Assembly: GCA_038321315.1 (NCBI GenBank)
Contig: JBBQEX010000005.1
Coordinates: 164,097 to 212,473 of the forward strand
Origin: Haliangiales bacterium
Lineage (GTDB): Bacteria; Myxococcota_A; Polyangia; Haliangiales; Haliangiaceae
Length of the DNA stretch: 48,377 nucleotides
Reading direction: 5' to 3'
The stretch's first letter is position 1. Every line of letters starts with the position of its first letter. The position numbers and the translations under genes are program-made. The notes beneath the pieces are model-generated. The model was not told where the DNA came from. It did not search any database and worked only from the letters and a program-made list of their open reading frames with translations. Shown one piece after another: positions 17,296 through 33,573 of the stretch.

Positions 17296-18879
17296 TCAGC
17301 GCGAGATCACGCGCCACGGAGGCGCGGCCGTCCAGTCGACGTTGACGTAGTCGCGGACCTTCATGCCGCTCAGGTACCAGATGCCGACCTCGCCGGTCGT
17401 CGTGTTGTGCCACGCGAGGTCGATCAGGCCGTCGTCGTCGAAGTCCTCGGTACCCATCAACTTCCAGTCCGTGCCCGCGTACGAGCCGTCGAGCGACTCG
17501 ATGCTGCGCACGGTGGTACCGCGCATCAGCCACACGCTGACGACCCCGGTCGTCGGGTTGTGCCACAGCACGTCGACGTTGCCATCACCGTCGAAGTCGC
17601 CGGTGCCCATGACCGAATTTGCAGTTCCGACGGAAGTGCGCGACAGGGCCGCACTACCGATGATGTGTCCACCGCTGAGGTACCAGACGCTCAGCTGTCC
17701 GGTCGTCGCGTTGTGCCACAGGATGTCGGCGCTGCCGTCACCGTTGAAGTCACCGGTGCCACGCACCTGCCACGTGGTGCCGGGCACGTTCCACTCGAGG
17801 TCGAACCCGCGCGTCACGGTCGTCCCGTTCACGAGCCAGATGCCGACCTCACCGCTCGACGGGTTGTGCCACAGCACGTCGGGCTTGTGATCGCCGTTGA
17901 AGTCCGCGACGCCAACCCCGAGCCACGGCGTGTTCGCAGTCCAGTTGAGAGTTGCCGCACTGGCGACCTTGCTGTCGCGGCCGATCGACCAGAACGCCAC
18001 GGCTCCGGTCGACGAATTTTGCCACAGGATGTCGCTCAGTCCGTCGCCGTTGAAGTCCTTGAGCCCGGCGCCGACGCCTTCGCTCGTGACGCACCCGCAG
18101 GACCGGTTCGAGTAGATCCGCGGGACGTCGTAGCCATCGAGGCTCCACGCCGGCAGCGTCTCGCACGGGTCACCGACCTCGCGCCAACCAGCTTCCGTCG
18201 AGATCGGGTGGGCCATCGCCTCGAAGAGCTCGTGCGAGGCATACGTCGTGAAACGGTCGATGTTGATCGAGACGCTGTCGCCACCCGCCCATGGGATCGT
18301 CGCGCCGACGACACGACGGCCATCCTCGGGGTGATAGAAGAACCAGTGATGGCCTCCGAGGCCGATGTCACCGGTCGACACGACACCGTTCGGTAGGTAG
18401 ACGACATAGACGTCGTTGACCGTCGGCGCGATGCCGGTGAGCGTGTACTTCGACGTCACGCTCGTGACGAAGTTCTGGATGTCGTCGTTGTTCACCGTCG
18501 CGGGCGGGTTGCCCGTCACGAGGGAGCCGGCGAACCGACCGGTGCCGGTCCCGTACTGCTGGACCGCGTTGAAGTAGGCGTGGTCGTTGCCGAGGAATCG
18601 CCACGCGGTGTCGATCTGGTCGCGCCACATCGCGCCACCACCGAATCCGGTCTCGTTCCAGAACGCGGTGCCCCAGTAGAGATTGTAGATGTTGACGGGA
18701 TGGGTGGCGTCGCCGAGGACCTGGGCGCCGCCGTTCGCCATGTGGTGGCAAGCGTCGACGGGGTTGTCCGGGCTCGGGATGGTGTCGGCCTGGCTGACCG
18801 TGCCATCAGCAGGATCGGCGGTGTCGACACAACCGACGCAGAGCAGCAGCGGGAACAGCGAGAGGGCGATCTTGTTCAT
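17296..18879 (-). CDS. Secreted lipoprotein: N-terminal PHI-1/EXORDIUM-like domain + FG-GAP (integrin-alpha-like) repeats
   Basis: MNKIALSLFPLLLCVGC lipobox. The N-domain (YNLYWGTAFW...YGTGTGRF...VYVVYLP...YASHELFEAMAHP) is paralogous to the N-domain of 46133..48040 and resembles the plant EXORDIUM/PHI-1 pattern. Five DFNGDGxxDILWHN FG-GAP repeats follow. Confidence 0.85.
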   Translation of the reverse strand: MNKIALSLFPLLLCVGCVDTADPADGTVSQADTIPSPDNPVDACHHMANGGAQVLGDATHPVNIYNLYWGTAFWNETGFGGGAMWRDQIDTAWRFLGNDHAYFNAVQQYGTGTGRFAGSLVTGNPPATVNNDDIQNFVTSVTSKYTLTGIAPTVNDVYVVYLPNGVVSTGDIGLGGHHWFFYHPEDGRRVVGATIPWAGGDSVSINIDRFTTYASHELFEAMAHPISTEAGWREVGDPCETLPAWSLDGYDVPRIYSNRSCGCVTSEGVGAGLKDFNGDGLSDILWQNSSTGAVAFWSIGRDSKVASAATLNWTANTPWLGVGVADFNGDHKPDVLWHNPSSGEVGIWLVNGTTVTRGFDLEWNVPGTTWQVRGTGDFNGDGSADILWHNATTGQLSVWYLSGGHIIGSAALSRTSVGTANSVMGTGDFDGDGNVDVLWHNPTTGVVSVWLMRGTTVRSIESLDGSYAGTDWKLMGTEDFDDDGLIDLAWHNTTTGEVGIWYLSGMKVRDYVNVDWTAAPPWRVISR

Positions 18880-18927
18880 ACCCGCTAGATGCGGTCGAAC
18901 TCCGATGTGACAGAGCTCGAAGCAAGC

Positions 18928-20039
18928 TCACCACGCGCCGCAGCGGATCGGGCCGAACCGATCGGCGTCATCGAGCCGATCGCGGATCAGCGTGCCCATG
19001 CGGCTCGTCGACACCACCGCGCCGCCAGATCCGGGTGGCGCGATGTCGGCGGTCCGGCTCCCTGCTGCGATCGTCGCTGCGACCGCGTCCTCGACCGCGT
19101 GCGCCTCGGCGTCGAGCCCGAGCGAGTGCCGGAGCAGCAACGCGGCGCTGAGGACCGTGCCGATCGGATTCGCCGCGCCGGTGCCGGCGATGTCGGGCGC
19201 CGAGCCGTGGATCGGCTCGTACAAGCCGCACCGGCCGTCTCCGAGCGACGCGCTCGGGCACAAGCCGAGCGAGCCCGCGAGAACCGAGGCCTCGTCGCTG
19301 AGGATATCGCCGAACATGTTCTCGGTCACGATCACGTCGAATTGCGCGGGCGAGGTGATCAGGCGCATCGCGGCCGAATCGACGAGCTGATGGTCGAGTT
19401 GCACGTCGGGGTAGCGAGCCGCGACCTCGGTCGCGATCTGTCGCCACAGGCGCGAGGATTCGAGGACGTTCGCCTTGTCGATCGACGTGACGCGACCCCG
19501 CCGGCCGCGCGCGAGCTTGAACGCGAGCTCGACGACGCGCTCGATCTCGTGATCGGAGTACTCCAGCGTGTCGACCGCGCGCCGGCGACCGGCGTGCTCG
19601 TCGCGCCGGCGCGGGCCGAAGTACAACCCACCGGTCAGCTCGCGGATCACGAGGACATCGACGCCGGCGAGCCGCTCGGGGCGGAGCGGCGAGCAGCCGG
19701 CGAGCTCGCTGTACGGTCGCACCGGACGAAGATTCGCCCACAGCCCGAGTTGCCTGCGCAGCGCGAGCAGGCCCTGCTCGGGCCGGACCGGGGCGTTCGG
19801 ATCGTCCCAGCGCGGCCCACCGACGGCCCCGAGCAAGATGGCATCGGCCTCGCGACAGCTCGCGAGCGCGGCATCCGACAGCGCGGTGCCGTGCGCGTCG
19901 ATCGACACACCGCCGATCGGCTGCTCGACGAACTGAAAGCGGTGACCGAACAGGCTCGCGACGGTGTCGAGGACGCGGCGGCCTTCCTCGACGACCTCGG
20001 GGCCGATGCCGTCACCGGGAAACAAGACGATCGTGGCCT

Positions 20040-20043
<4 letters not shown>
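18928..20043 (-). CDS. leuB: 3-isopropylmalate dehydrogenase
   Basis: [18 protein letters not shown]...NLRP...[10 protein letters not shown] signature. ATG at 20043 overlaps the upstream gene's stop (ATGA). Confidence 0.95.
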
Positions 20044-21621
<1,578 letters not shown>

Positions 21622-21638
<17 letters not shown>

Positions 21639-22194
21639 ACGCCTCGATGTCGGGAAGGTGAGTCATCAGGAACCCGAGCTCGTCGACGCCGTCGAGCAAG
21701 CAGCGGCGCGCGAACGCGTCGACGGTGAACGCGGTGGTCGCGAACCCCGGCGCGCGCAGCTCCCGAGCCTCGAGATCGATCGTGATCTCGAGCGCGGCAT
21801 CGGCGGCGATCGCCGCGGCGAGCTGGGCATGGAGGGTGCTCGGCACGACCACCGGGACGAGCCCGTTCTTGAGCGCGTTGCCGCGGAAGATGTCGGCGAA
21901 CGACGGCGCGACGACGGCGCGAAACCCGCCGGCGACGAGGGCCCACGCGGCGTGCTCGCGCGACGAGCCGCATCCGAAGTTGTCGCCGGCGACGAGGATC
22001 TGCGCGCCGGCGCTGTGCGGCGCCCCGATCGGGCAGTCCGGACGCGCGCGCCAGTCGGCGAACAGCGCGTCGGCGAGCCCGGCCTTGTCGGTGCCCTTCA
22101 GGTATCGCGCGGGGATGATCTGATCGGTATCGACATCGGCGTCGAGCACCAGGACGGCACGTGCCACGAGCTGGGTGAAGCGTGGGGTGGTCAT
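21622..22194 (-). CDS. leuD: 3-isopropylmalate dehydratase small subunit
   Basis: [17 protein letters not shown] motif. 190 aa. ATG at 22194 overlaps the leuC stop (ATGA). Track ORF 21622..22719 has a spurious N-terminal extension. Confidence 0.9.
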
Positions 22195-25133
22195 GCGGTC
22201 CTCGTCTCGGGCAGGAACGTCCGCGGGTCGGTGACTCGACCGGTCACGGCCGAGGCCGCGGCGGTCTGTGGCGACGCGAGCAGCGTGCGGCCACCAGGGC
22301 CCTGGCGACCCTCGAAGTTGCGGTTCGACGTCGACACCGCCAGCTGGCCGGGCTGCAGCTGGTCGCCGTTCATCGCGATGCACATCGAACATCCGGGCTC
22401 GCGCCACTCGGCGCCCGCGTCGCGGAACACGCGATCGAGTCCCTCGGCTTCGGCCGCGGCCTTGATCGCGGCGCTGCCTGGCACGACCAGCATGCGCACG
22501 CCGCGGTCGACCCGACGGCCCCGCAGGATGTCGGCCGCGGCGCGGAGATCGCCGATCCGCGAGTTCGTGCACGAGCCGACGAACACGACATCGACCTTCA
22601 TGCCGAGCAGCGGGACGCCGGGCGCGACGCGCGTGTAGCGCACCGCGGCCTCGAGCTGCGGCGACGTCTCGGGCACCCGCTGCGTGATCCCGATCCCGTG
22701 GCCGGGGTTGGTGCCCCACGTGATCATCGGCTCGAGCACCGTGGCATCGATGTGCAGCTCGCGATCGAAGACCGCGCCGTCGTCGGTGGCGAGCGCGCGC
22801 CAGCGCTCCACCGCGCGATCCCAGTCCGCGCCCGACGGTGCGTGGGGCCGGCCCGCGAGGTACGCGAACGTCGTGTCGTCAGGCGCGATCATGCCGGCGC
22901 GTGCACCGGCCTCGATCGACATGTTGCAGACCGTCATGCGGCCATCCATGTCGAGCGCGCGGATCGCCTCGCCGGCATACTCGATCACGTGGCCGGTCGC
23001 GCCACCGATCCCGATCTTCGCGATCATCGCGAGGATCAGATCCTTCGCGGTGACGCCACGGCCCGGTAGACCGTCGAACGTCACGCGCAACGTGCGCGGC
23101 CGGCGCTGCAGCAGGCACTGGGTCGCGAGGACGTGCTCGACCTCGCTCGTGCCGATGCCGAACGCGAGCGCGCCGAACGCGCCGTGCGTCGACGTGTGCG
23201 AGTCGCCGCACACGATCGTCATCCCGGGTTGCGTGAGCCCTTGTTCCGGGCCGATCACGTGCACGATGCCGTGACCCGGCGAACCGAGCGCGTGCAGGGT
23301 GATCCCGTGCTCGGCGCAATTCGTCTCGAGCCGGCGCAGCTGGGCGCGCGCGGCGTCGTCGGCGATCGCGAGTCCGCCCGCGCGCGTCGGCGTCGAGTGA
23401 TCCATCGTCGCGACCGTGCGGGCCGGTCGCCGGACGGGCAGGCCGCGCGTCGCGAGGCCCGCGAACGCCTGCGGCGACGTGACCTCGTGAACCAGGTGGA
23501 GATCGACGTAGAGGATCGCGGGCGCATCGGGCGGCGACGCCGCGACATGCGCGTCCCAGACCTTGGCGAACAGCGTGCGTGGTGGCGGCCGCGTGTCGAG
23601 CGCGCGGTCGAGCACGCGATTGACGGCGGCGAGGTACGCCTTCGCACTCGCGACGACGATGTCGGTGTCGGCGCCGTGCCCGCGGGCGATGCCGGTGCCG
23701 GCTCCAGGTCGAACGCGGACGCTGACCTCGCCGAGTGCGTCGATGCCGGCGGTCACGGCATCGACGTGGTACTCGAGGAGCTCGACGCGAACTCCGACGA
23801 TGGCGTCGATCGCCTTGAACGCGGCGTCGACCGGTCCGGTGCCGATCGCGGCCTGCACCACGAGCTGGTCGTCGGGTCCGCGCAGGCGCACGGTGGCGGT
23901 CGACATCCCGGTCGTGCCGCAGCCGACCTGCATGCCGTCGAGCACGTAGTGCGCCGATGGTGCACCCCGCTCGCTCGCGGCCAGCGCGAGCAGGTCGGCC
24001 TCGCCGACGTACTGCTTGCGATCCGCGATGGCCTTGAAGCGCTCGAACGCGCGCGCCAGCGCCGCACCGTCGAGGCTGATGCCGAGGGCGGCGAGCTGGT
24101 CGGCGAACGCATGACGCCCCGAGTGTTTGCCGAGCACGAGGCGACTGCCAAGCGCGCCGACGTCCTCGGGTCGCATGATCTCGTAGGTCGCCTGGTGCTT
24201 GAGCATCCCGTCCTGGTGGATGCCCGACTCGTGCGCGAACGCGTTGGCTCCGACCACCGCCTTGTTGGGTGGCACGACGAATCCGGTGCAGCTCGCGACC
24301 AGCTTCGACAGCCGTGTCAGCTGTGGCGTCTCGATCCCGGTGTCGAGCCCGATCACCGCGCGCCGCGTTCGCAGCGCCATCACGAGCTCCTCGAGCGAGC
24401 AGTTGCCGGCGCGTTCGCCGATGCCGTTCACGGTGACCTCGGCCTGGCGCGCGCCCGCTCGCAGACCCGCGAGCGTGTTGGCGACCGCGAGGCCGAGGTC
24501 ATCGTGACAATGAACCGAGATGATCACGCCGCTCGCGCCCGGGACGTTCGCGAGGATCCCGGTGATCAGCGCACCGAACTCGTCGGGGAGCGTGTAGCCG
24601 ACGGTGTCGGGGATGTTGAGCGTCGTCGCGCCCGCCGCGATCGCGCGCTCGAGCACCTCGTAGAGGAACGCGGGATCGCTGCGACCGGCATCCTCGGGCG
24701 AGAACTCGACGTCATCGCAGTAGGTCTTCGCGTAGGCGACGATCTCGGATACGCGGGTCTTCACGTCGACACGCGACATCCGCAGCTTGTGCTCGAGGTG
24801 CAGATCGCTCGTCGCGAGGAACGTGTGGAGGCGCGGGCGCTGGGCGCCGCGGACCGCCTCCCACGCGCGATCGACGTCGACGCGGGTCGCGCGCGCGAGG
24901 CCCGCGATGATCGGCGGCTCGGGCCTCGCGTCGTGCGGCATGCCGACCTCGCGTGCGATCGCACGCACGGCCTCGAGATCGCCAGGAGACGCGGCGGGAA
25001 AGCCGGCCTCGATCACGTCGACCCCGATGCGCGAGAGAGCGCGCGCGATCTCGAGCTTCTCGGCGGGCTGGAGCGTCGCGCCCGGCGCCTGTTCGCCGTC
25101 GCGCAGCGTGGTGTCGAAGATGCGGATGTACAT
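22191..25133 (-). CDS. leuA-leuC: 2-isopropylmalate synthase (LeuA) fused in-frame to 3-isopropylmalate dehydratase large subunit (LeuC); 980-aa single ORF
   Basis: The N-terminal 515 aa carry the LeuA TIM barrel ([18 protein letters not shown]...) and the LeuA_dimer domain ending [19 protein letters not shown] 12-aa linker [12 protein letters not shown] follows, then the LeuC N-terminus [11 protein letters not shown]...[17 protein letters not shown] with [19 protein letters not shown] and [11 protein letters not shown] motifs. The junction was translated by hand: the two halves share one frame, and no stop was found in either alternative frame across the junction. Confidence 0.85.
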
Positions 25134-25134
25134 C

Positions 25135-26154
25135 TCACTCCCCCGGCTTGACGGTGACGGGATCGAGGAACGGCATCATCGCGCGCAGCTCCGCGCCGAC
25201 CTTCTCGATCGGCTGTTCCTGCTCGGCGCGACGGCGTGCCTTGAACTCGGGCGAGCCGTTTCCGACCTCGGCGATCCACGCCTTCGCGAAGCTGCCGCTG
25301 CGAATGTCGGCGAGCAGCTTCTGCATCGCCGCCTTGGCCTCCGGACCGATCACCTTGTCGCCGGCGACGTAGTCACCCCACTCGGCGGTGTCCGACACCG
25401 AGTAGCGCATGTAGTTGAGTCCGCCGCGGTACATGAGGTCGACGATCAACTTGAGCTCGTGCAGACACTCGAAGTACGCGACCTCGGGCTGATAGCCCGC
25501 GTCGGTCAGCGTCTCGAAGCCCGCCTTGACGAGCGCGGAGACGCCGCCGCACAACACGGCCTGCTCGCCGAACAGATCGGTCTCGGTCTCCTCGGCGAAC
25601 GTGGTCTCGAGCACCCCGGCGCGCGCGCATCCGAGCGCGGAGGCGTACGCGAGGGCGAGCGCGTGGGCCGCGGGCGACGACGCCGGATGGACCGCGAGCA
25701 GTGCCGGCGTGCCGCCGCCCTCGCGATAGGTCTCGCGGACGCGATGGCCGGGCGCCTTCGGCGCGATGAGAGCGACGTCGACGCCGACCGGCGGCGTGAT
25801 CGTGCCGTAGTGGATGTTGAAACCGTGCGCGAACAGGAGCGTCTTCCCGCTGCCGGCGGCGAACTGTGGGGCCACGCGGTCCCGCCAGATCTCGGCCTGC
25901 GCGGTGTCGGGCGCGAGCATCATGAGCACGTCGCACCACGCGGCCACCTCGTCGACCGACCCGACGGTGAGGCCGGCCTCCTTCGCCGTGGCGATCCGGC
26001 GCGAGGTCGGCGCGAGGCCGACCCGGACCTCGACGCCGGAGTCGCGCAGGTTGAGCGCGTGCGCGTGCCCTTGCGAGCCGTAGCCGACGACGGCCACCTT
26101 CTTCGATTGGATCAGACGGAGATCAGCGTCGCGGTCGTAGAAGATGCGGGCCAT
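25135..26154 (-). CDS. ilvC: Ketol-acid reductoisomerase (class I)
   Basis: [40 protein letters not shown]. 339 aa. ATG at 26154. Track ORF 25135..26376 has an Arg-rich spurious extension. Confidence 0.95.
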
Positions 26155-26693
26155 GGGGAGGTTCCTTGTGGTTGGGCTTCTGCGGAAGTCGAAGAGGGGG
26201 ATCGTGGCGTCGGCTCGCCGCGGGTCATCGCGACCACGCCGGTGCGGACCATCTCGAGGACACCCTCGGGTGCGAGTACGCCGACGAGGTCGTCGATCTT
26301 GTCGTGGGTCGCGGTCAGCTCGATGGTGACGAGCTCGGCGGTCATGTCGATGACCCGCGCGCCGAACACCTCGCACACCTGCAGGATCCGAGGACGCGAG
26401 CCGGCGCTGGCGCGCACCTTGATGAGCGCGAGCTCGCGGGCGATCGACGGCGAGAACGTGACGTCCTCGACGAGCAGGACGTTGACCAGCTTGTAGAGGT
26501 TGGCCTCGATCCGCCGCGCGCTGTCCTCGTCGGCCTCGATCACCAGCGTGAGACGCGAGACGCCGGGCTCGGCGGTGCGCCCGACGGTCAGCGACGCGAT
26601 GTTGAACCCGCGGCGCCGGAACAGCGACGCGATCCGGTTCAGCACGCCGGGCTTGTCCTCGACGCGCGCGATGAACGTGTGGGTCTTGGTCAT
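26112..26693 (-). CDS. ilvH: Acetolactate synthase small (regulatory) subunit
   Basis: ACT domain [38 protein letters not shown]. Its 3' end overlaps the ilvC start by 43 nt in this frame, so the true stop or a C-terminal extension is uncertain. Confidence 0.85.
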
Positions 26694-26694
26694 G

Positions 26695-28431
26695 TCAGGG
26701 GTCCTCGGCGGTCTCGACCAGGGCGCTGGTAGGCTTGGGGCGGCGGATCATCTCGGCGAGATCCGCGCCGCTCGGCACCATCGGGTAGACCGAGTCCTCT
26801 TGCTCGACGCGGAAGTCGATCACCACCGTGCCGGGCGTCGCCTGCGCGGCACGCACCGTGCTCTCGACCTCGGCGCGCTTGGTCACGCGCATCGCGGTGA
26901 GGCCGTGCGCCTCGGCGAGCTTCACGAAGTCGGGCGACCGCATCGGCGTCGACGAGTAGCGACCGCCGTAGAAGAACTGTTGCCACTGCCGGACCATCCC
27001 GAGATAGCCGTTGTTGATGATCGCGACGTTGACCTTCACGCCCTCCTGCGCCGCGGTCGACAGCTCGCATGCGGTCATCTGGAAGCCGCCGTCGCCGGCG
27101 ATCACCCAGATCTCCTCGTCGGGGCACGCGAACCGCGCGCCGATCGCGGCGGGCAGCGCGAACCCCATCGTGCCGAGCCCGCCGGAGGTCAGGAGCTTCC
27201 GCGGGTAGTCGTGCTTGTAGTACTGCGCCTCCCACATCTGGTGCTGGCCGACGTCGGTCACGACGAGAGCGCGGCCCTCGGTGAGCCGCCAGAGATCGTG
27301 GATCACGTGGGCCGCGTAGAGCCGACCCTCGTCGGGCAGGCCCTGGATGTCGCGCACCGCGCTGTCGCCCTTGAGCGCGTCGATGTGCGCGAGCCACGGC
27401 GCGCGCTGGCGCGCGGCGACCCGCGGCGTGAGGGCCTCGAGCACGCGACCGACGTCGTCGACCAGCGCGACGTCGACCTTGACGTTCTTGCCGACCTCGC
27501 TGCGATCGATCTCGACGTGGATCTTGCGCGCGCTCGGGGCGTAGGTCGCGAGCCGGCCGGTGACGCGATCGTCGAACCGCATGCCGAGCGCGATCAACAG
27601 GTCGGCCTCCTGGATCGCGTGGTTGACCCACGCCTCGCCGTGCATGCCCATCATGCCGAGCGCGAGCGGGTGGCTCGCGGGGAACCCCCCGAGGCCGAGC
27701 AGCGTCGCCGCCACCGGGATGTGGGCCTTGTCGACGAACGCGCGCAGGAGGTCACCGGCACCCGCCTTGACGATGCCGTGGCCCGCGAGCACGACGGGAC
27801 GCTCCGCGCGATCGATGAGATCCGCGGCGCGCGCGAGCAACTCGTCGGGCGCGTGGGACGACGGTCGGTAGCCGGGCAGCGTCGGCGCGCCGGTCGGCGA
27901 GCGCCAGGTGCCGGTCGCTTGCTGTGCATCCTTGCAGATATCGACGAGGACCGGCCCGGGTCGACCGCTGCGCGCCAGGAAGAAGGCTTCGCGAATCGTC
28001 GACGCGATGTCGTCGACGCTGGTGACCAGGTAGTTGTGCTTCGTGATCGGTAGCGTCACGCCGGTGACGTCGGTCTCCTGAAACGCGTCGCTGCCGAGCA
28101 GCGTCGACGACACCTGGCCGGTGATGAACACGACCGGGACCGAGTCCATCATCGCGGTCGCGATCCCGGTGACCAGGTTCGTCGCGCCCGGGCCGCTGGT
28201 CGCGAGCGCGACGCCGACCTTGCCCGAGGCGCGCGCGTAGCCGTCGGCCATGTGCGCGGCGCCCTGTTCGTGCCGGACCAGCACGTGGCGGATCCGATCC
28301 GCGTACTTCAGCATCGCGTCGTACGCCGGCATGATCGCGCCGCCCGGATACCCGAACACGACCTCGACGCCCTCGGCGACGAGCGCCTCCCACAGGATCT
28401 CCGCGCCGGTGAGCCGACGCCCATCGGTCAC
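26695..28431 (-). CDS. ilvB: Acetolactate synthase large subunit (TPP enzyme)
   Basis: GTG start at 28431 ([31 protein letters not shown]), preceded by a GGAGG Shine-Dalgarno 5 nt upstream, and overlapping the ilvD stop (GTGA). TPP-binding GDGGFQM...NN motif. The track's N-terminal 170 aa are an Arg-rich artifact. Confidence 0.9.
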
Positions 28432-30089
28432 GTGAGCCTCCAGGTCTTGACGTCCGTGGTGATCGCGCCGTCGGAGGCACTCGAGACGGTGGCCGCGTAC
28501 TTCCGCATCACGCCGATGAGCGGGCGTTGTGGGCGCTGCAACGGCACGCGTCCGGTGAGATCCGCGAGCACGTCGAGCCGGCGGTTGGCGACGTCGATCC
28601 GGATCCGATCGCCGTGACGAAGCAGGTCGATCGGGCCACCGGCGGCGGCCTCCGGGCAGACATGGCCGACCATGAACCCGTGCGTCGCGCCGCTGAACCG
28701 ACCGTCGGTGACGAGCGCGACGTCGTCGGCGAGGCCAGCGCCGACCAGCGCACCGGTGACCTGGAGCATCTCGCGCATCCCGGGGCCGCCGCGTGGACCC
28801 TCGTTGCGGATCACGATCACGTCGCCGCGGACGATCGTGCCGGCGGTGACCGCGGCGTATGCGGTCTCCTCGCTGTCGAACACGCGCGCCGGCCCCTCGT
28901 GGAGCTCGCGGTCGTGGCCAGCGAGCTTCACCACGCATCCATCGGGAGCGAGCGAGCCGCGCAGGATCGCGAAACCGCCGCGCGCCTTGATCGGCGCCCC
29001 GACCGCGACGATCACCTGCTGGCCGTCGGCTTCACGCGCCGCATCGGCCTCGCCGCGCAGCGTCTTGCCGGTGACCGTCGGCGCGTCCTCGAGGAGGTTC
29101 GCGTCGAGCAACCGGCGCACGAGGAGTCCGATGCCACCGGCGGCGTACATGTCGGCGGCGGCGAAGCGCCCACCCGGCTTCAAGTCGGCGATCACCGGCG
29201 TGCGCGCGGCGATCGTGTCGAACTCGTCGATCGTGAGGGGCAGCCCGGCCTCGCGGGCGATCGCGAGCATGTGCAACACGCCGTTGGTCGAGCCGCCGGT
29301 CGCCGCGATCGACACGATCGCGTTGCGCAGCGAGGTCGGCGTCAGGAACTGTCGCGCGTTCCGCCCGTCGCGCACGAGCGCCATCACCATCTCGCCGGCC
29401 TCGCGCGCGACCCGCGACTTGTCGGGCGCGGTCGCGGGAACCTCGCCGGCGCCGATCGCCGAGAGCCCGAGCACCGCGAGCGCGGTCGCCATCGTGTTGG
29501 CGGTGAACTGGCCACCGCACGCGCCCGCGCCGGGGCACGCGGCATCCTCGAGCGCGCGCAGGTCTCCGTCGGTCATCGCGCCGCGCGCATGGGCGCCGAC
29601 CGCTTCGAACACGTCCTGGATCGTCACGTCCTTGCCGCGAAACCGACCGGGCTGGATCGGCCCGCCGTAGAACACGAGGCCGGGCAGGTCGAGGCGCGCG
29701 AGCGCCATCGCCGCGGCCGGCAGGGTCTTGTCGCATCCGACAAGCACGACCACGCCGTCGACCATGTGCCCGAACGCGACGAGCTCGATCGAATCGGCGA
29801 TCACCTCGCGCGACACGAGCGAGGCCCGCATGCCCTCGGTTCCCATCGTCACGCCGTCGGACACCGCGATCGTGTTGAACTTGATTGGGGTGTTTTCGGC
29901 CGCGCGCACGCCGCGCTTGACCTCCTCGGCGAGCGCGCGCAGATGCAGATTGCACGGCATGACGTCGGTGTGGCTGCCGACGACGGCGATCAGCGGCCGC
30001 TCGAGGTCAGCGTCGGTGAGTCCGGTGGCCTTGAGCATGGCGCGTGCGGGCGCGCGGCTCGGGCCCTTCTTCAGTTGATCGCTTCTCAT
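28428..30089 (-). CDS. ilvD: Dihydroxy-acid dehydratase
   Basis: [26 protein letters not shown]...CDKTLP...SDGRFSG motifs. ATG at 30089. First gene of the minus-strand ilv-leu cluster. Confidence 0.95.
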
Positions 30090-30107
30090 GTGGCTTCTGA
30101 ATTCCTC

Positions 30108-30153
30108 GTCGGAAAAACAAAAGACCCCGCCACCCAGGAGTGGGTGCGGGGCC
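30108..30153 (-). terminator. Intrinsic terminator (attenuator terminator) in the ilvD 5' leader
   Basis: Minus-strand RNA is CCCCGCACCC-acuccu-GGGUGGCGGGG, a 10-bp GC stem with one bulge, followed by UCUUUUGUUUUUCC. The U-tract ends about 24 nt upstream of the ilvD ATG. Confidence 0.6.
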
Positions 30154-30184
30154 AGTGGTCGTGAACTCGTTAGTTCAGGATCGG

Positions 30185-30337
30185 CTACCCGCACCCGGGG
30201 CTAATCAGGGAGATGCCAATAAGGCGAAGTCCCTCGAGCCCGAGCGCGATCAGCGATACGAGTGCCGGCGCTACGCACGCCCCGCCGTAGATGCTGGTCG
30301 GCATCTCCGTCGGCGAGTCGTTCGCGTCAAACTGCAT
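30185..30337 (-). CDS. Branched-chain amino-acid leader peptide (ilv/leu attenuator leader), 50 aa
   Basis: Hand-translated sequence is [50 protein letters not shown] followed by a TAG stop. 14 of the last 29 residues are Ile/Leu/Val. Several use codons rare for this genome (GTA x2, CTT x2, ATT x2). The stop codon sits inside GGGUGCGGGUAG, a perfect 9-nt complement of the terminator 5' arm CCCGCACCC. Confidence 0.55.
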
Positions 30338-30538
30338 CGCCTGATCACGCTAAGGAAAATGCCGCACCGGGTCAAGAAGTTTTGACGCGGCATGTCGTGA
30401 AGCGAGACTAGGAGTGCAACATTACAGTCGAAATCCAAGATGAGATTTCTGCGATCGTTGTGAATTATCAGATGGTGAGTCCGCTACAGCGCTGCGGTCG
30501 CGCGATTCGTGTACGCGCCATCACCGGAATCGGTGGAA

Positions 30539-30945
30539 CTACAGCGGCGCGGCATAGCAGAAGCGCGGGCCAAGCTTCTCGGTACAGTCCCGAGCGGCGG
30601 CGACGCCGAGCGCGTTGTCGTGGAGGCACAGGCGCGAGATGGTCGGAACGAGTTGCGAAGACTCGCCGACGAGGGCGTGCGCTCCCTCATCGGTGATGGC
30701 GTTGTCTTGCAACAGCAGATCGACGACGCGCGCAGCCGCTGGGGCTTCGGCGAGGGCGCGCGCGCCGGCGTCACCGAGCCGATTCCCGTTGAGAAAGATC
30801 CTGAGCGGCAGGCGAGGGGCGCGCGCGAGGATGGCGCCAGCCTCGGGGCCCAGCTGGTTGTGATCGAGCTCGATCACGTCGAGCCGCGCGAAGGCAGGGT
30901 GCGCCACGATCTTCGCGAGGCCGGCATCGTCGATCGCGCAGCGGC
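30539..30945 (-). pseudogene. Frameshifted C-terminal continuation of the TIGR02996/LRR gene (LRR units in the -1 frame)
   Basis: The alternative frame reads AIDDAGLAKIVAHPAFARLDVIELDHNQLGPEAGAILARAP...LLLQDNAITDEGAHALVGES..., clearly LRR, continuing the upstream gene after a single-nucleotide frame change around 30930..30950. Confidence 0.45.
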
Positions 30946-33573
30946 AAGGGTCATCCCGCGTAGCTCTGGGAGGGCGTCGAGGAGAGCGATCGCTCCGTCG
31001 GCGCCCAGCTCGCAGTCCCGCAACAGCAGCCTGCGGAGCAGTGGCAGGCTGGCGAGCGAACGCACGATCTCGGGGCCGAGACGGCGATCGACGCACGGGC
31101 CGACCACCAACCGGCGCAGGGTCTTCGCGACGCGCCCGCGTGCGAGCGCGCCCAGGGCCATCTCGTCGAACCGGTTCTCGCCGAGGTCGAGACTCACGAG
31201 CTCGAGCTCGGCAAGCGCCGCGACACCCACATTGCCTACACCCACGTTCGAGATATCGAGCCACGCGAGCCCGGACGCCGAGGCGAGCGCCGCAACACCC
31301 CCGTCACCGATGGCGATTCCGCCGAGCTGCAAGCGTTCCACGCCAAGCTTCGCCAGCGTCCGCGCGCCTCGGACCCCGATCGGATTGCCGCCCAGATCGA
31401 GGTGCTTGAGCGACGGCAGCCGCGTCAACGGCGCCACATCGTCATCGGCGAGCTGGCAATGATCGAGCCTCAGGTCCTTCAACCTCGTGAAGCGGCTCGC
31501 GCCTCCCGCGCCGAACAACGCGCCCGTCGCGGCGCGGAGCGCCACTTCACCGAGGTCGAGCGTTTGCAGCTGGTCTCGCGGCCCGATCGATCCGACCTCC
31601 TCGATCGAGAGCTGCGCACCGCGCAGCCCCAGCTCGCGGAGGTCGGGAAACCGTCCCGCGAGCCGACGCACGATCTGGTCTCCGAATCGCTCGAGGGTCT
31701 CGCCGTCCGGTCCATCCACCGCGAACACGGGCCTCTTGAAATCGAGGATCGTGAGTCGCTCGAGCCTCGGATCGTCGAGCACGCGCGCCGGGTCATCGAT
31801 GACCTCGTTGCGGTAACTCCTGAAGTAAAGGCCCTGCAGTGGTGGCGAGAGCGCGAAGGCCTCGTCGAGATTCGCGGCGTACGTGCCCCAGCGCACCTCG
31901 ATGCCCTCCACGAACCCGCGGTCCCACCGATATCCGCGCTTGCCCCACGCGCGCCCGTGCTGCGCGAGCAGCTGCTCGACGCGGATGGTTAGCAACTCGC
32001 GCTCCGGATCGTCCTCGTGGAGGCCGGCGATCCTGCATTGCGCGACGATCAGCTCGCCTCGCGGGTCGCCGCGTTCGGTGAGGAGGTCGGCCCACACGAG
32101 CCGCGGCGCGTCGTCGTCCGGGGTCGCCGCGATCTGCGCGAGGATGCTCGCGTCGGCGAGCTTGGCCATCGCGCGCTCGAGATACGGCCGGTCGTCGTCG
32201 TCCTTTGGAAGCCGCGCGCGCTCCCACGCGAGATCCTCGATGGCACCCTCGACGTCGCCGGCCATCGCCCGAAACTCCGAGCGCCACCGCCGCCAGCCGG
32301 GCAGCTCGCGCCCGAGCATCTCCGCGAGCGCCGCGAAGACGCGAAGCCCGAACCTCCCGGTCGCCGGCGTGCTCGCCTCGTAGCCGACCGACGATCGGAT
32401 GAAGTGATAGACGTCGACCCCGTCCTTCAACGTGGCCAGCTCCGCTTCGGCCGCCGCCGACAAGATGGGTGCGTCCACCTCCACCGAAGCCGCATCGGGC
32501 CAGTCGATGACGACCTCGAGGAGACGGCGATGGCTCAGACAGTCGCCGTAGACAAGGAGGTCGCGCAGCGCTTCGTGCGGCGACACGGCCGACAACCCGA
32601 CCAGCGTGCGACACAACACCTCGCGGAGTGGACGGCGCAGCACCTCGAGGAACTCGGCCGAGCCGCCGGCGATCATCGCCTGTAGCTCGGCCTCGGGACA
32701 TGCGCGCTCGCTGGTCACGCCCTCGTCGAAGTCTTCGATGAAGAGCTCGCCGTTTCGCCCGAGGTACGTCGTGTGCAGGCGCGAACCCCCGATCACGACC
32801 TGCATGCCGTCTCGGATCCCGGCGATCACGCGTTGGATCTCGTCCGCGCCGAGCTCGAGCGTGCTGCGCGGTGGCTCGCGGGTCACGTGCGCGTACGTGG
32901 ACGTCGAGATGAATTGAAACGTCGCGCGGCAGCGCGTACAGCGCAAGCGCCCGGCACGCCACGCGTCCCCGGTCTCCACGCTCGTGAGCGTGACGAACTG
33001 CGACCGCGGGAACGCGCGGATGTCGCCGTTCGTCATCCCATCCCAGACCGCGCACGAACACGGCGCGGGGGTGCGGGACTCCCACGCGATCCCCATCTGT
33101 TGTTCGCGCGCAGCCGGCACGTTCGCGCGGAAGATCCGCACGTACGCGGCCGCCTCCTCGGCGCGCCCGACGGCCGGCTCGGAGAGTTGCTCGACGAGTG
33201 CGCGCGCGACACGCTCCCGATCCTCGCCGTCGCCCGCGGCGCGCACGAGGCGATCCGCGAGCATCATCGGATCGGCGACGTGCGGTTCGAGCAGGGCATC
33301 CGCGAATTCGAGATGATCCCTCGTGATGAGCGACGTCACCACGACGGCGCTGTCGTCGTCGTCCCAGGCGCGCGGCGATCCGTAGACGCCCTGATCGAGA
33401 TCGAGCGTCCGCCGGAGCAGCACGTCGGGCTCCCCGGGATGCACGAGGTCGAGGCGGGTCCAGGCGCCTTCTCGCCGCGCGCTCCAGCTCATCGCATCGA
33501 TCTCGTCGGGCGTGTTCGCGCGAACGACCAGCACGGTCAGCGACCGCGTCGGCGACCGAGGTTGCGCGGCCAT
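30874..33573 (-). CDS. Large hypothetical protein: N-terminal unknown domain + TIGR02996 repeat-companion domain + RNI-like leucine-rich repeats (main frame)
   Basis: RLVWADLLTERGDPRGELIVAQCRIAG matches the TIGR02996 signature. LRR units follow (LKHLDLGGNPIGVRGARTLA, LDISNVGVGNVGVAALA, ...). The last 20 or so residues of this frame (MTLAAARSTMPASRR...) are non-LRR garbage, consistent with a frameshift near 30940. Confidence 0.75.
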   Translation of the reverse strand: MAAQPRSPTRSLTVLVVRANTPDEIDAMSWSARREGAWTRLDLVHPGEPDVLLRRTLDLDQGVYGSPRAWDDDDSAVVVTSLITRDHLEFADALLEPHVADPMMLADRLVRAAGDGEDRERVARALVEQLSEPAVGRAEEAAAYVRIFRANVPAAREQQMGIAWESRTPAPCSCAVWDGMTNGDIRAFPRSQFVTLTSVETGDAWRAGRLRCTRCRATFQFISTSTYAHVTREPPRSTLELGADEIQRVIAGIRDGMQVVIGGSRLHTTYLGRNGELFIEDFDEGVTSERACPEAELQAMIAGGSAEFLEVLRRPLREVLCRTLVGLSAVSPHEALRDLLVYGDCLSHRRLLEVVIDWPDAASVEVDAPILSAAAEAELATLKDGVDVYHFIRSSVGYEASTPATGRFGLRVFAALAEMLGRELPGWRRWRSEFRAMAGDVEGAIEDLAWERARLPKDDDDRPYLERAMAKLADASILAQIAATPDDDAPRLVWADLLTERGDPRGELIVAQCRIAGLHEDDPERELLTIRVEQLLAQHGRAWGKRGYRWDRGFVEGIEVRWGTYAANLDEAFALSPPLQGLYFRSYRNEVIDDPARVLDDPRLERLTILDFKRPVFAVDGPDGETLERFGDQIVRRLAGRFPDLRELGLRGAQLSIEEVGSIGPRDQLQTLDLGEVALRAATGALFGAGGASRFTRLKDLRLDHCQLADDDVAPLTRLPSLKHLDLGGNPIGVRGARTLAKLGVERLQLGGIAIGDGGVAALASASGLAWLDISNVGVGNVGVAALAELELVSLDLGENRFDEMALGALARGRVAKTLRRLVVGPCVDRRLGPEIVRSLASLPLLRRLLLRDCELGADGAIALLDALPELRGMTLAAARSTMPASRRSWRTLPSRGST

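What the first reader, a model, noticed from the sequence alone, without database searches (positions are those of the whole stretch)
22191..25133. In-frame fusion of 2-isopropylmalate synthase (LeuA) and isopropylmalate dehydratase large subunit (LeuC) in a single 980-aa ORF
Translating across the junction (about 23590) shows the end of the LeuA_dimer domain ([18 protein letters not shown]), a 12-aa linker ([12 protein letters not shown]) and the LeuC N-terminus ([11 protein letters not shown]...[17 protein letters not shown]) in one reading frame. No stop codon was found across the junction in either alternative frame. A bifunctional LeuA-LeuC would couple consecutive leucine-pathway steps. 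I do not know of a described LeuA-LeuC fusion. A lost stop codon or a sequencing error is the alternative.
Basis: seen in the sequence. Interest (0 to 1): 0.65.

Follow-up and report, generated by a model that had tools for sequence, protein, structure and literature searches.

The report
Recent in-frame LeuA–LeuC gene fusion
In this Kofleriaceae-like genome, a short deletion has joined two neighbouring leucine-biosynthesis genes (leuA and leuC) into one 980-residue protein; its closest relatives lack the join, but the same kind of fusion has arisen separately in a few other bacterial lineages.

Summary
The 980-aa ORF (22191..25133, minus strand) is real. It holds a complete LeuA (2-isopropylmalate synthase, including the regulatory domain) and a complete LeuC (isopropylmalate isomerase large subunit), about 8 residues apart. 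It is not a lost stop or a one-base error. The four closest loci (85-92% nt identity, Kofleriaceae-like) keep leuA and leuC separate, with an ATGA stop/start overlap and a CAGGAGC ribosome-binding site. The window lacks 26/50/56 nt there (each 2 mod 3). This removes the LeuA tail end, stop, SD and leuC ATG, and puts leuC in frame. Every other indel inside genes is a multiple of 3. Both halves show dN/dS of 0.12-0.21, and the catalytic motifs are intact. leuD remains translationally coupled, and no usable internal start exists. So LeuC here must be made as a fusion, unless the assembly is wrong; reads were not available. The fusion is a singleton in its clade, but NJ trees give 5-6 separate fused clades elsewhere. 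One is a Myxococcota-like long form, one a Gemmatimonadota long form, and one has 22 clusters lacking the regulatory domain. No paper describing it was found. Verdict: a genuine, probably tolerated, recent fusion. It is a modestly interesting new variant of well-known enzymes.

The parts
22191..25133 (-). Fused leuA::leuC ORF, 980 aa. ATG at 25133 and TGA at 22191-22193. A GGGAG Shine-Dalgarno site lies 4 nt upstream, inside the end of ilvC.
24297..25127 (-). LeuA catalytic TIM barrel (HMGL-like, residues 3-279). Motifs [16 protein letters not shown] and GERAGN are present.
   Evidence: motifs read from the translation; invariant columns
24012..24257 (-). LeuA subdomain (HCS_D2, residues 293-374).
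23610..24005 (-). LeuA allosteric/dimerisation domain (LeuA_dimer, residues 377-508; model positions 3-131 of 131, so complete).
23583..23606 (-). Junction/linker RALDTRPP (residues 510-517). It is what remains of the hypervariable Pro/Ala-rich LeuA C-terminal tail. The deletion point relative to relatives lies at about 23584-23587. The stop codon, the CAGGAGC Shine-Dalgarno site and the leuC ATG (Met-Thr-Thr/Ala) are absent.
22239..23564 (-). LeuC aconitase-family domain (residues 524-965). It carries CGDSHT and the Fe-S cysteine motifs GSCTNSR and [10 protein letters not shown].
   Evidence: motifs read
21622..22194 (-). leuD (isopropylmalate isomerase small subunit, 190 aa). Its ATG at 22194 overlaps the fusion's TGA (ATGA), and a GAGG Shine-Dalgarno site lies upstream.
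20040..21638 (-). Second LeuA-family synthase (cimA-like, 532 aa), between leuD and leuB.
   Evidence: same gene in L001/L165/L003
18928..20043 (-). leuB (3-isopropylmalate dehydrogenase).
25135..26154 (-). ilvC (ketol-acid reductoisomerase). Its stop lies 1 nt before the fusion's ATG.
26112..30089 (-). Upstream part of the same operon: ilvD (about 28437-30089), ilvB (about 26698-28431) and ilvN (26112-26693).

Best explanation
This is a genuine, evolutionarily recent gene fusion. The ancestor had the gene order ilvD-B-N-C-leuA-leuC-leuD-cimA-leuB. There, leuA ended in a disordered Pro/Ala-rich tail, and its stop codon overlapped the leuC start (ATGA), with the leuC Shine-Dalgarno site (CAGGAGC) embedded in the tail. 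A deletion of a few tens of nucleotides, of length 2 mod 3, removed the end of the tail, the stop, the Shine-Dalgarno site and the first three leuC codons. That put leuC in the leuA frame. The product is one 980-residue chain: a complete LeuA, a linker of about 8 residues left over from the tail, and LeuC from its conserved PRTLF motif onward. By inference it dimerises through LeuA, and each LeuC moiety binds a separately made LeuD. It would then catalyse steps 1 and 2 of the leucine branch and also serve the neighbouring CimA. Because leuC has lost its own start and ribosome-binding site, LeuC can only be made as part of the fusion. An out-of-frame deletion would have caused leucine auxotrophy, so only in-frame outcomes survive. 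The most likely status in this lineage is a tolerated, near-neutral event that fixes LeuA:LeuC at 1:1. Substrate channelling is possible but not shown.
For: Shown: the ORF and its full-length domains. Relatives L164 (92.1% nt identity over aligned columns), L165 (87.7%) and L001/L002 (86.4%) share the operon but keep leuA and leuC separate, with the ATGA overlap and a conserved CAGGAGC. The window lacks 50 nt against L164 (47+3), 26 against L165 and 56 against L001, each 2 mod 3. All other indels inside coding bodies are multiples of 3, so the assembly is clean. No linker codon is one substitution from a stop. The only canonical in-frame start near the junction is GTG at V507, with no Shine-Dalgarno site; the next is M577, inside the conserved LeuC core. 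dN/dS is 0.12-0.21 for both halves. leuD coupling is retained. In NJ trees of both halves the window nests inside unfused relatives: ((window, L164), L165), (L001, L002). The architecture is viable elsewhere. P0001/P0279 (960 aa, same operon) has an even shorter linker. The P0002 and P0003 clusters (1001-1021 aa, Gemmatimonadota MAGs) each hold full-length fused members from more than one source database. A 22-cluster clade is monophyletic in both the LeuA and LeuC trees, each fusion followed by leuD-leuB. AlphaFold2 predicts helix 492-512, coil 513-520 and helix 521-529, which fits a short flexible linker. Inferred: quaternary structure, retained activities and neutrality.
Against: The fusion is a singleton. 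No protein or contig more than 80% identical shares the junction. The sequence comes from a 212-kb NCBI contig in a clade otherwise known only from MAGs, and I could not inspect reads. The junction lies in a GC-rich, low-complexity, length-variable stretch, where assembly or strain-consensus errors are conceivable. dN/dS covers the whole divergence since the split from L164, not only the time since the fusion. No activity or proteomic data exist. AlphaFold2 gives no confident inter-domain arrangement (pTM 0.54).
Confidence: 0.75

Rival explanations
1. Assembly or consensus artefact, or a minority allele. The organism really has separate leuA and leuC like its relatives, and the deletion arose during assembly or binning of a strain mixture in a GC-rich, low-complexity, length-variable segment.
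For: All close relatives are unfused. The tail region varies in length between relatives. The relatives are MAG or metagenome contigs, and the window's contig is probably one too. Public data do contain spurious LeuA-LeuC 'fusions' caused by frameshifts or chimeras: P0057, P0180, P0294, P0300 and P0311.
Against: Those artefacts keep remnants (an in-frame Met-Thr leuC start, out-of-frame stretches). The window has none. The deletion is clean and restores the frame exactly. Over about 11.5 kb of operon, every other indel inside a gene is a multiple of 3. Assemblers rarely create 26-56 nt deletions in unique sequence. Equally clean junctions occur in well-replicated fusions (P0001-P0003).
Confidence: 0.13
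2. The fused ORF is real, but one half is non-functional or redundant. The event would be a decaying copy, with the activity supplied from elsewhere in the genome.
For: Only 48 kb of the genome is visible. The event is young, so decay might not show yet.
Against: Both halves score above the curated equivalog cut-offs. The catalytic and Fe-S motifs are intact. dN/dS is 0.12-0.21. The ORF sits in an otherwise intact, tightly coupled operon with leuD, cimA and leuB.
Confidence: 0.07
3. Two proteins are still made, either by internal translation initiation (GTG at V507) or by proteolytic cleavage in the linker. The fusion would then exist only at the DNA level.
For: An in-frame GTG lies 11 codons before the conserved LeuC core. 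The linker is predicted to be coil.
Against: The 20 nt upstream of that GTG contain no Shine-Dalgarno-like motif, whereas relatives have a conserved CAGGAGC that is deleted here. There is no stop to release LeuA. No protease site is known.
Confidence: 0.05

Closest known systems
Separate bacterial LeuA (2-isopropylmalate synthase, long form with regulatory domain; NCBIfam NF002086 / TIGR00973) and LeuC (TIGR00170), as in the Kofleriaceae-like relatives L164, L165 and L001
   Same: The domains, the motifs and the operon order are the same, with 82-90% amino-acid identity in each half against L001 and L165.
   Different: In the relatives the two genes are separate and overlap by ATGA, and leuC has its own Shine-Dalgarno site. 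Here they form one ORF, and the stop, Shine-Dalgarno site and start are deleted.
Undescribed LeuA-LeuC fusions in public metagenome/MAG data, long form: P0001/P0279 (960 aa), the P0002 cluster (1015-1021 aa, Gemmatimonadota), the P0003 cluster (1001 aa, e.g. MBX7118814.1, Gemmatimonadaceae) and L088
   Same: The four-domain architecture is identical. The linker is short and has no Met. The fusion point lies just before the PRTL motif of LeuC. leuD follows the fused gene.
   Different: Identity is only 62-68%. In NJ trees each sits among unfused genes of its own lineage, so these are independent events and not orthologues of the window's fusion.
Short-form LeuA(no regulatory domain)-LeuC fusions: P0004-P0025, P0121, L049 (Gemmatimonadetes bacterium 2013_60CM_65_52) and L147
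   Same: A synthase catalytic domain plus HCS_D2 is fused in frame to LeuC, followed by leuD and leuB.
   Different: They lack the LeuA_dimer allosteric domain. They form one old clade of 22 clusters that is monophyletic in both halves. The window keeps the regulatory domain and is not in that clade.
Fungal Leu1-type isopropylmalate isomerase (LeuC-LeuD fused in one chain; from my own knowledge)
   Same: It is also a gene fusion within the leucine pathway that involves LeuC.
   Different: The fusion partner is the small subunit, part of the same enzyme, not the preceding pathway enzyme. Here leuD stays separate.
Other fusions of consecutive biosynthetic enzymes, e.g. TrpC-TrpF and HisI-HisE (from my own knowledge)
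   Same: Adjacent, translationally coupled operon genes for consecutive steps are merged into one chain.
   Different: Those fusions are widespread and biochemically characterised. This one is rare (1 of 80 and 2 of 80 sampled loci) and uncharacterised.

Membership tests
2-isopropylmalate synthase LeuA (bacterial long form) | Score above the curated equivalog cut-off | tested here: met
   NF002086 scores 733.9 bits against 532. TIGR00973 scores 666.4 against 598.7. Both matches cover residues 2-510.
2-isopropylmalate synthase LeuA (bacterial long form) | HMGL-like TIM barrel with the metal and substrate motifs (RDGEQ, HxH...D, GERAGN) | tested here: met
   PF00682 covers 3-279. The motifs were read in the translation and fall on invariant columns of alignment A2.
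2-isopropylmalate synthase LeuA (bacterial long form) | Complete C-terminal LeuA_dimer regulatory domain | tested here: met
   PF08502 covers residues 377-508, model positions 3-131 of 131.
2-isopropylmalate synthase LeuA (bacterial long form) | IPMS activity and leucine feedback inhibition | not testable with these tools
   This needs an enzyme assay.
3-isopropylmalate dehydratase large subunit LeuC | Score above the curated cut-off | tested here: met
   TIGR00170 scores 654.1 bits against 560.25. NF004016 scores 715.6 against 510. Both matches cover residues 518-973.
3-isopropylmalate dehydratase large subunit LeuC | Three cysteine ligands of the 4Fe-4S cluster, plus the CGDSHT motif | tested here: met
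   [17 protein letters not shown] and [10 protein letters not shown] are present in the translation. That these are the ligands comes from established knowledge of the aconitase family.
3-isopropylmalate dehydratase large subunit LeuC | A partner small-subunit gene (leuD) next to it | tested here: met
   leuD lies at 21622..22194 and overlaps the fusion's stop through ATGA.
Gemmatimonadota-type LeuA-LeuC fusion clade | Common descent of the fused gene with that clade | tested here: not met
   In NJ trees of both halves the window is sister to the unfused L164 and lies far from the fused clades.
Gemmatimonadota-type LeuA-LeuC fusion clade | Single ORF with a synthase domain N-terminal to the aconitase domain, with leuD downstream | tested here: met
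   This is a resemblance in architecture only.
Fungal Leu1-type LeuC-LeuD fusion | LeuC and LeuD in one chain | tested here: not met
   leuD is a separate ORF.

The most novel reading that the evidence does not exclude
LeuA-LeuC fusion is a convergently selected device rather than a tolerated accident. Under this reading it arose at least 4-5 times wherever leuA and leuC are adjacent. It would assemble a (LeuA-LeuC)2-LeuD2 complex that channels 2-isopropylmalate or lets LeuC influence the allosteric domain. In one Gemmatimonadota clade, LeuC has taken the place of the regulatory domain. The window would then be the youngest known example, caught just after the fusing deletion.
Probability: 0.2. 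Interest if true: 0.55.

Novelty: new variant of a known kind. Interest (0 to 1): 0.35.

Why it matters
Both enzymes are textbook, so the biochemistry is not new. The case is still useful in four ways.

1. It is an unusually clear natural example of how an operon gene fusion is born. The unfused ancestral state is preserved in relatives 85-92% identical in DNA, so the exact deletion can be read off.

2. It shows that LeuA-LeuC fusions recur independently wherever the two genes overlap. One such fusion has been stably inherited across a sizeable clade, which argues that the architecture works.

3. It has a practical side for annotation. Public records name these proteins after only one of the two enzymes: '2-isopropylmalate synthase' for MBX7118814.1, and '3-isopropylmalate dehydratase large subunit' for the JGI entries. 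Pathway reconstructions will therefore wrongly report a missing leuA or leuC.

4. It offers natural scaffolds for testing substrate channelling in 2-keto-acid chain-elongation pathways, which are used in metabolic engineering.

Tried and rejected
- **Point-mutated stop codon.** Rejected. None of the 12 junction codons is one substitution from TAA, TAG or TGA.
- **Single-base frameshift error.** Rejected. LeuA homology up to NRVLD and LeuC homology from PRTLF are in the same frame, only 8 codons apart. No remnant of the tail end, Shine-Dalgarno site, stop or ATG is left. No other non-3n indel occurs inside a gene.
- **Internal start for LeuC.** Only GTG at V507, without a Shine-Dalgarno site, and M577 inside the conserved core are available. 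No promoter-like site was found across 18500-31000.
- **Conservation in close relatives.** Looked for and not found.
- **Exact look-up of the window protein's contig.** Nothing on record, so the source sample and reads stay unknown.
- **GTDB genome scan.** It returned 80 loci, and none was more than about 74% identical in either half. The source species was not recovered.
- **Junction-only protein search.** It returned only short fragments. Several turned out to be frameshifted, read-through or chimeric (P0294, P0300, P0311; also P0180; P0255 does not span a junction at all). They were not counted as fusions. P0057 was likewise rejected as a frameshift artefact. P0006 is a plant TrpA+LeuA gene model and is irrelevant.
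- **AlphaFold2 monomer.** It gave good domain models but no confident relative orientation (pTM 0.54). Parts of LeuC had low pLDDT because the alignment was shallow, so no fold search was run.
- **Rfam scan of the whole window.** No hit.
- **Literature.** Four searches found no description of a LeuA-LeuC fusion. The two candidate papers I opened were irrelevant.
- **Solved structures.** No PDB chain covers both halves.
Full report
**1. The observation**

The window holds a single ORF at 22191..25133 on the minus strand: 980 aa with an ATG start.
- Pfam places HMGL-like at residues 3-279, HCS_D2 at 293-374, LeuA_dimer at 377-508 (model 3-131 of 131) and Aconitase at 524-965.
- NCBIfam matches the LeuA equivalog NF002086 over residues 2-510 (733.9 bits, cut-off 532). 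It matches LeuC models NF004016 and TIGR00170 over 518-973 (715.6 and 654.1 bits, cut-offs 510 and 560.25).
- Both enzymes are therefore complete. The gap between the ends of the HMM matches is about 8 residues.
- The junction reads ...[34 protein letters not shown]....
- No frame has a stop near the junction.
- The window is 69.4% G+C. That explains the many long antisense ORFs, which I treat as spurious.

**2. Context**

tblastn with the genes of relative L165 maps a tight minus-strand operon:

| Gene | Window coordinates |
|---|---|
| ilvD | about 28437-30089 |
| ilvB | about 26698-28431 |
| ilvN | 26112-26693 |
| ilvC | 25135-26154 |
| leuA::leuC | 22191-25133 |
| leuD | 21622-22194 |
| cimA-like second synthase | 20040-21638 |
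| leuB | 18928-20043 |

- The ilvC stop lies 1 nt before the fusion's ATG, which has a GGGAG Shine-Dalgarno site.
- The leuD ATG overlaps the fusion's TGA (ATGA) and has a GAGG Shine-Dalgarno site.

**3. Close relatives are unfused**

- The exact protein is in the public collection (P0271, from a 212,473-bp NCBI contig). The other full-length members of its 90% cluster are ordinary LeuA proteins of 525 aa (P0272, P0277, P0278) and 547 aa (P0275, 'Kofleriaceae bacterium').
- Their C-termini continue after NRVLD with variable Pro/Ala-rich tails, for example TTLVAPPLQQEQAR* and ARGSVAPRPPATPPIQDQEHSR*.
- Contigs L164 (P0275), L165 (P0272) and L001/L002 (P0026) carry the same operon, with leuA and leuC called separately and overlapping by 4 nt.
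- Identity to the window over aligned columns is 92.1%, 87.7% and 86.4%. These are genus-level relatives, not the same species.

**4. What happened at the junction**

- In all three relatives the leuA tail contains CAGGAGC about 8 nt before an ATGA. There the leuA TGA and the leuC ATG overlap. LeuC then starts MT(T/A)[10 protein letters not shown] or MTTSDAPRTLF.
- The window lacks 26 nt relative to L165, 50 nt (47+3) relative to L164 and 56 nt relative to L001.
- Each of these lengths is 2 mod 3, which is exactly what is needed to bring leuC into the leuA frame.
- The missing piece holds the end of the tail, the Shine-Dalgarno site, the stop and the leuC start codon.
- None of the remaining linker codons is one substitution away from a stop.
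- The only canonical in-frame start near the junction is GTG at V507, with no Shine-Dalgarno-like sequence upstream. The next is M577, inside the conserved core.
- A lost stop, a one-base error and independent translation of LeuC are therefore all poor explanations.

**5. Assembly quality and selection**

- Over about 11.5 kb of aligned operon, every indel inside a coding body is a multiple of 3 (3, 6, 9, 15, 24, 36 nt). The non-3n indels all lie at gene boundaries or upstream of ilvD.
- dN/dS against L164, L165 and L001 is 0.118-0.209 for the LeuA half and 0.155-0.178 for the LeuC half.
- The LeuA motifs [16 protein letters not shown] and GERAGN are present. So are the LeuC motifs CGDSHT, GSCTNSR and CSMC (invariant columns).
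- I could not inspect reads, so an assembly or strain-consensus artefact keeps some probability (about 0.13).

**6. The architecture elsewhere**

A full-length search found three groups.
- **Long-form fusions** with all four domains: P0001 (960 aa, 68% identity), P0002 (1015 aa) and P0003 (1001 aa).
- **Short-form fusions** of 850-931 aa that lack LeuA_dimer (P0004-P0025).
- **Unfused LeuA** at 72-81% identity.

Further details:
- Cluster look-ups show full-length fused members from more than one source database. P0001 and P0279 come from ENA and JGI. The P0002 cluster holds 1015- and 1021-aa members, including a Gemmatimonadota MAG. The P0003 cluster has three 1001-aa members, including MBX7118814.1 (Gemmatimonadaceae). 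P0014 has four 879-aa members.
- The junctions are clean and lack a Met: NRVVATRSRRTLF, NTLLRARTAPRTLA, NALLRARESAAARPRTLI, and for the short form LLEGMTLPRTLF.
- P0001 sits in the same nine-gene operon as the window.
- The Gemmatimonadota fusions are followed by leuD and leuB.
- The fusions are rare. They made up 1 of 80 GTDB loci (L049) and 2 of 80 metagenome loci (L088, L147), found by checking for a stop-free ORF.
- In the library clustered at 50% identity, only one of the top 150 representatives (P0121) is a clear full-length fusion.
- Some database 'fusions' are frameshift, read-through or chimera artefacts (P0057, P0180, P0294, P0300, P0311). I excluded them.

**7. Independent origins**

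I built NJ trees of the LeuA core (122 sequences) and the LeuC core (155 sequences).
- The window is placed as ((window, L164), L165), (L001, L002). It nests among unfused genes.
- The trees give 5-6 separate all-fused clades: the window; P0001; L088; P0002+P0003; P0010; and a 22-member short-form clade that is monophyletic in both trees.
- The window's fusion is therefore a separate, recent event, younger than its split from L164 (dS about 0.22).
- The short-form clade shows that a LeuA-LeuC fusion can be inherited stably.

**8. Mechanism**

Shown: one ORF, a clean in-frame deletion, intact domains and a coupled leuD.

Inferred:
- The chain dimerises through LeuA.
- Each LeuC moiety binds a LeuD.
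- LeuA and LeuC are produced at 1:1.
- LeuC also serves the adjacent CimA-like enzyme.

AlphaFold2 (mean pLDDT 80.7, pTM 0.54) predicts helix 492-512, coil 513-520 and helix 521-529. That describes a short flexible tether with no confident inter-domain packing. No PDB chain spans both halves.

Recurrence is explained by the mutational set-up. The two genes overlap, LeuA ends in a disordered and length-variable tail, and only 3-6 residues precede the conserved core of LeuC. Any deletion of length 2 mod 3 across the overlap yields a viable fusion, whereas other deletion lengths knock out leuC. Whether the fusion adds channelling or changes regulation is untested.

**9. Literature and novelty**

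- A search for 'LeuA-LeuC' returned no papers. Three other term combinations returned nothing relevant.
- Source names cover only one of the two activities.
- I rate this a new variant of a known kind. The fusion itself is undescribed but simple. In this genome it is a young singleton.
- Interest is 0.35. The score is lowered by the ordinary enzymology and the singleton MAG status. It is raised by the clearly documented birth of a fusion and its convergent recurrence.

Noticed in passing
window 30185..30337 (-) and 30124..30141 (-): Upstream of ilvD lies a 50-codon [53 protein letters not shown], with a C-terminal half rich in Leu, Ile and Val. It is conserved in relative L165 (MGLDANDSLTEMPTGIDRALFVSSALVSVIALGLEGIRLISLLVISPGCG*). 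A strong GC-rich hairpin with a U-run follows it; the fold z-score is -2.86. This looks like leader-peptide attenuation of the whole ilv-leu operon. No Rfam family matched.
   Followed up: partly
window 20040..21638 (-): A second LeuA-family synthase (cimA-like, 532 aa, about 33% identical to the LeuA half) sits between leuD and leuB. It is conserved in L001, L165 and L003. This suggests a citramalate route to isoleucine that shares LeuC/LeuD/LeuB, so the fused LeuC probably also serves a second synthase.
   Followed up: partly
P0004-P0025, P0121; loci L049, L147, L166: A clade of 22 clusters, at least partly Gemmatimonadota, carries synthase-LeuC fusions that have lost the LeuA_dimer allosteric domain entirely. 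LeuC starts right after the HCS_D2 helix. This implies a leucine-insensitive or differently regulated first step. They are followed by leuD and leuB.
   Followed up: partly
window ~22660 and ~25133: The window has further deletions, relative to all three relatives, in variable segments. One is 24 nt in a LeuC surface loop. The other is 13-28 nt at the ilvC/leuA boundary, which shortens the LeuA N-terminus (MYIRIF... against MDSHVRIF... and MKRVINTDVTGTYVRIL...). This lineage seems to trim its variable linkers.
   Followed up: no
P0057, P0180, P0294, P0300, P0311 (public proteins): Several database proteins with both LeuA and LeuC domains are artefacts. They include frameshifted read-throughs that keep the leuC Met, and a LeuC-LeuA chimera. 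Counts of this architecture from domain tables alone would be inflated.
   Followed up: yes
P0003/MBX7118814.1 and JGI entries for P0002, P0010, P0013, P0014: Genuine fusions are named for only one enzyme by their sources ('2-isopropylmalate synthase' or '3-isopropylmalate dehydratase large subunit'). This would create false pathway gaps in automated metabolic reconstructions.
   Followed up: no
window 23133..25151 (+), 20061..21728 (+), 24787..26496 (+) and others: Long antisense ORFs (up to 672 aa) overlap the operon genes. They fit the expected artefacts of 69% G+C and are not evidence of genes.
   Followed up: no
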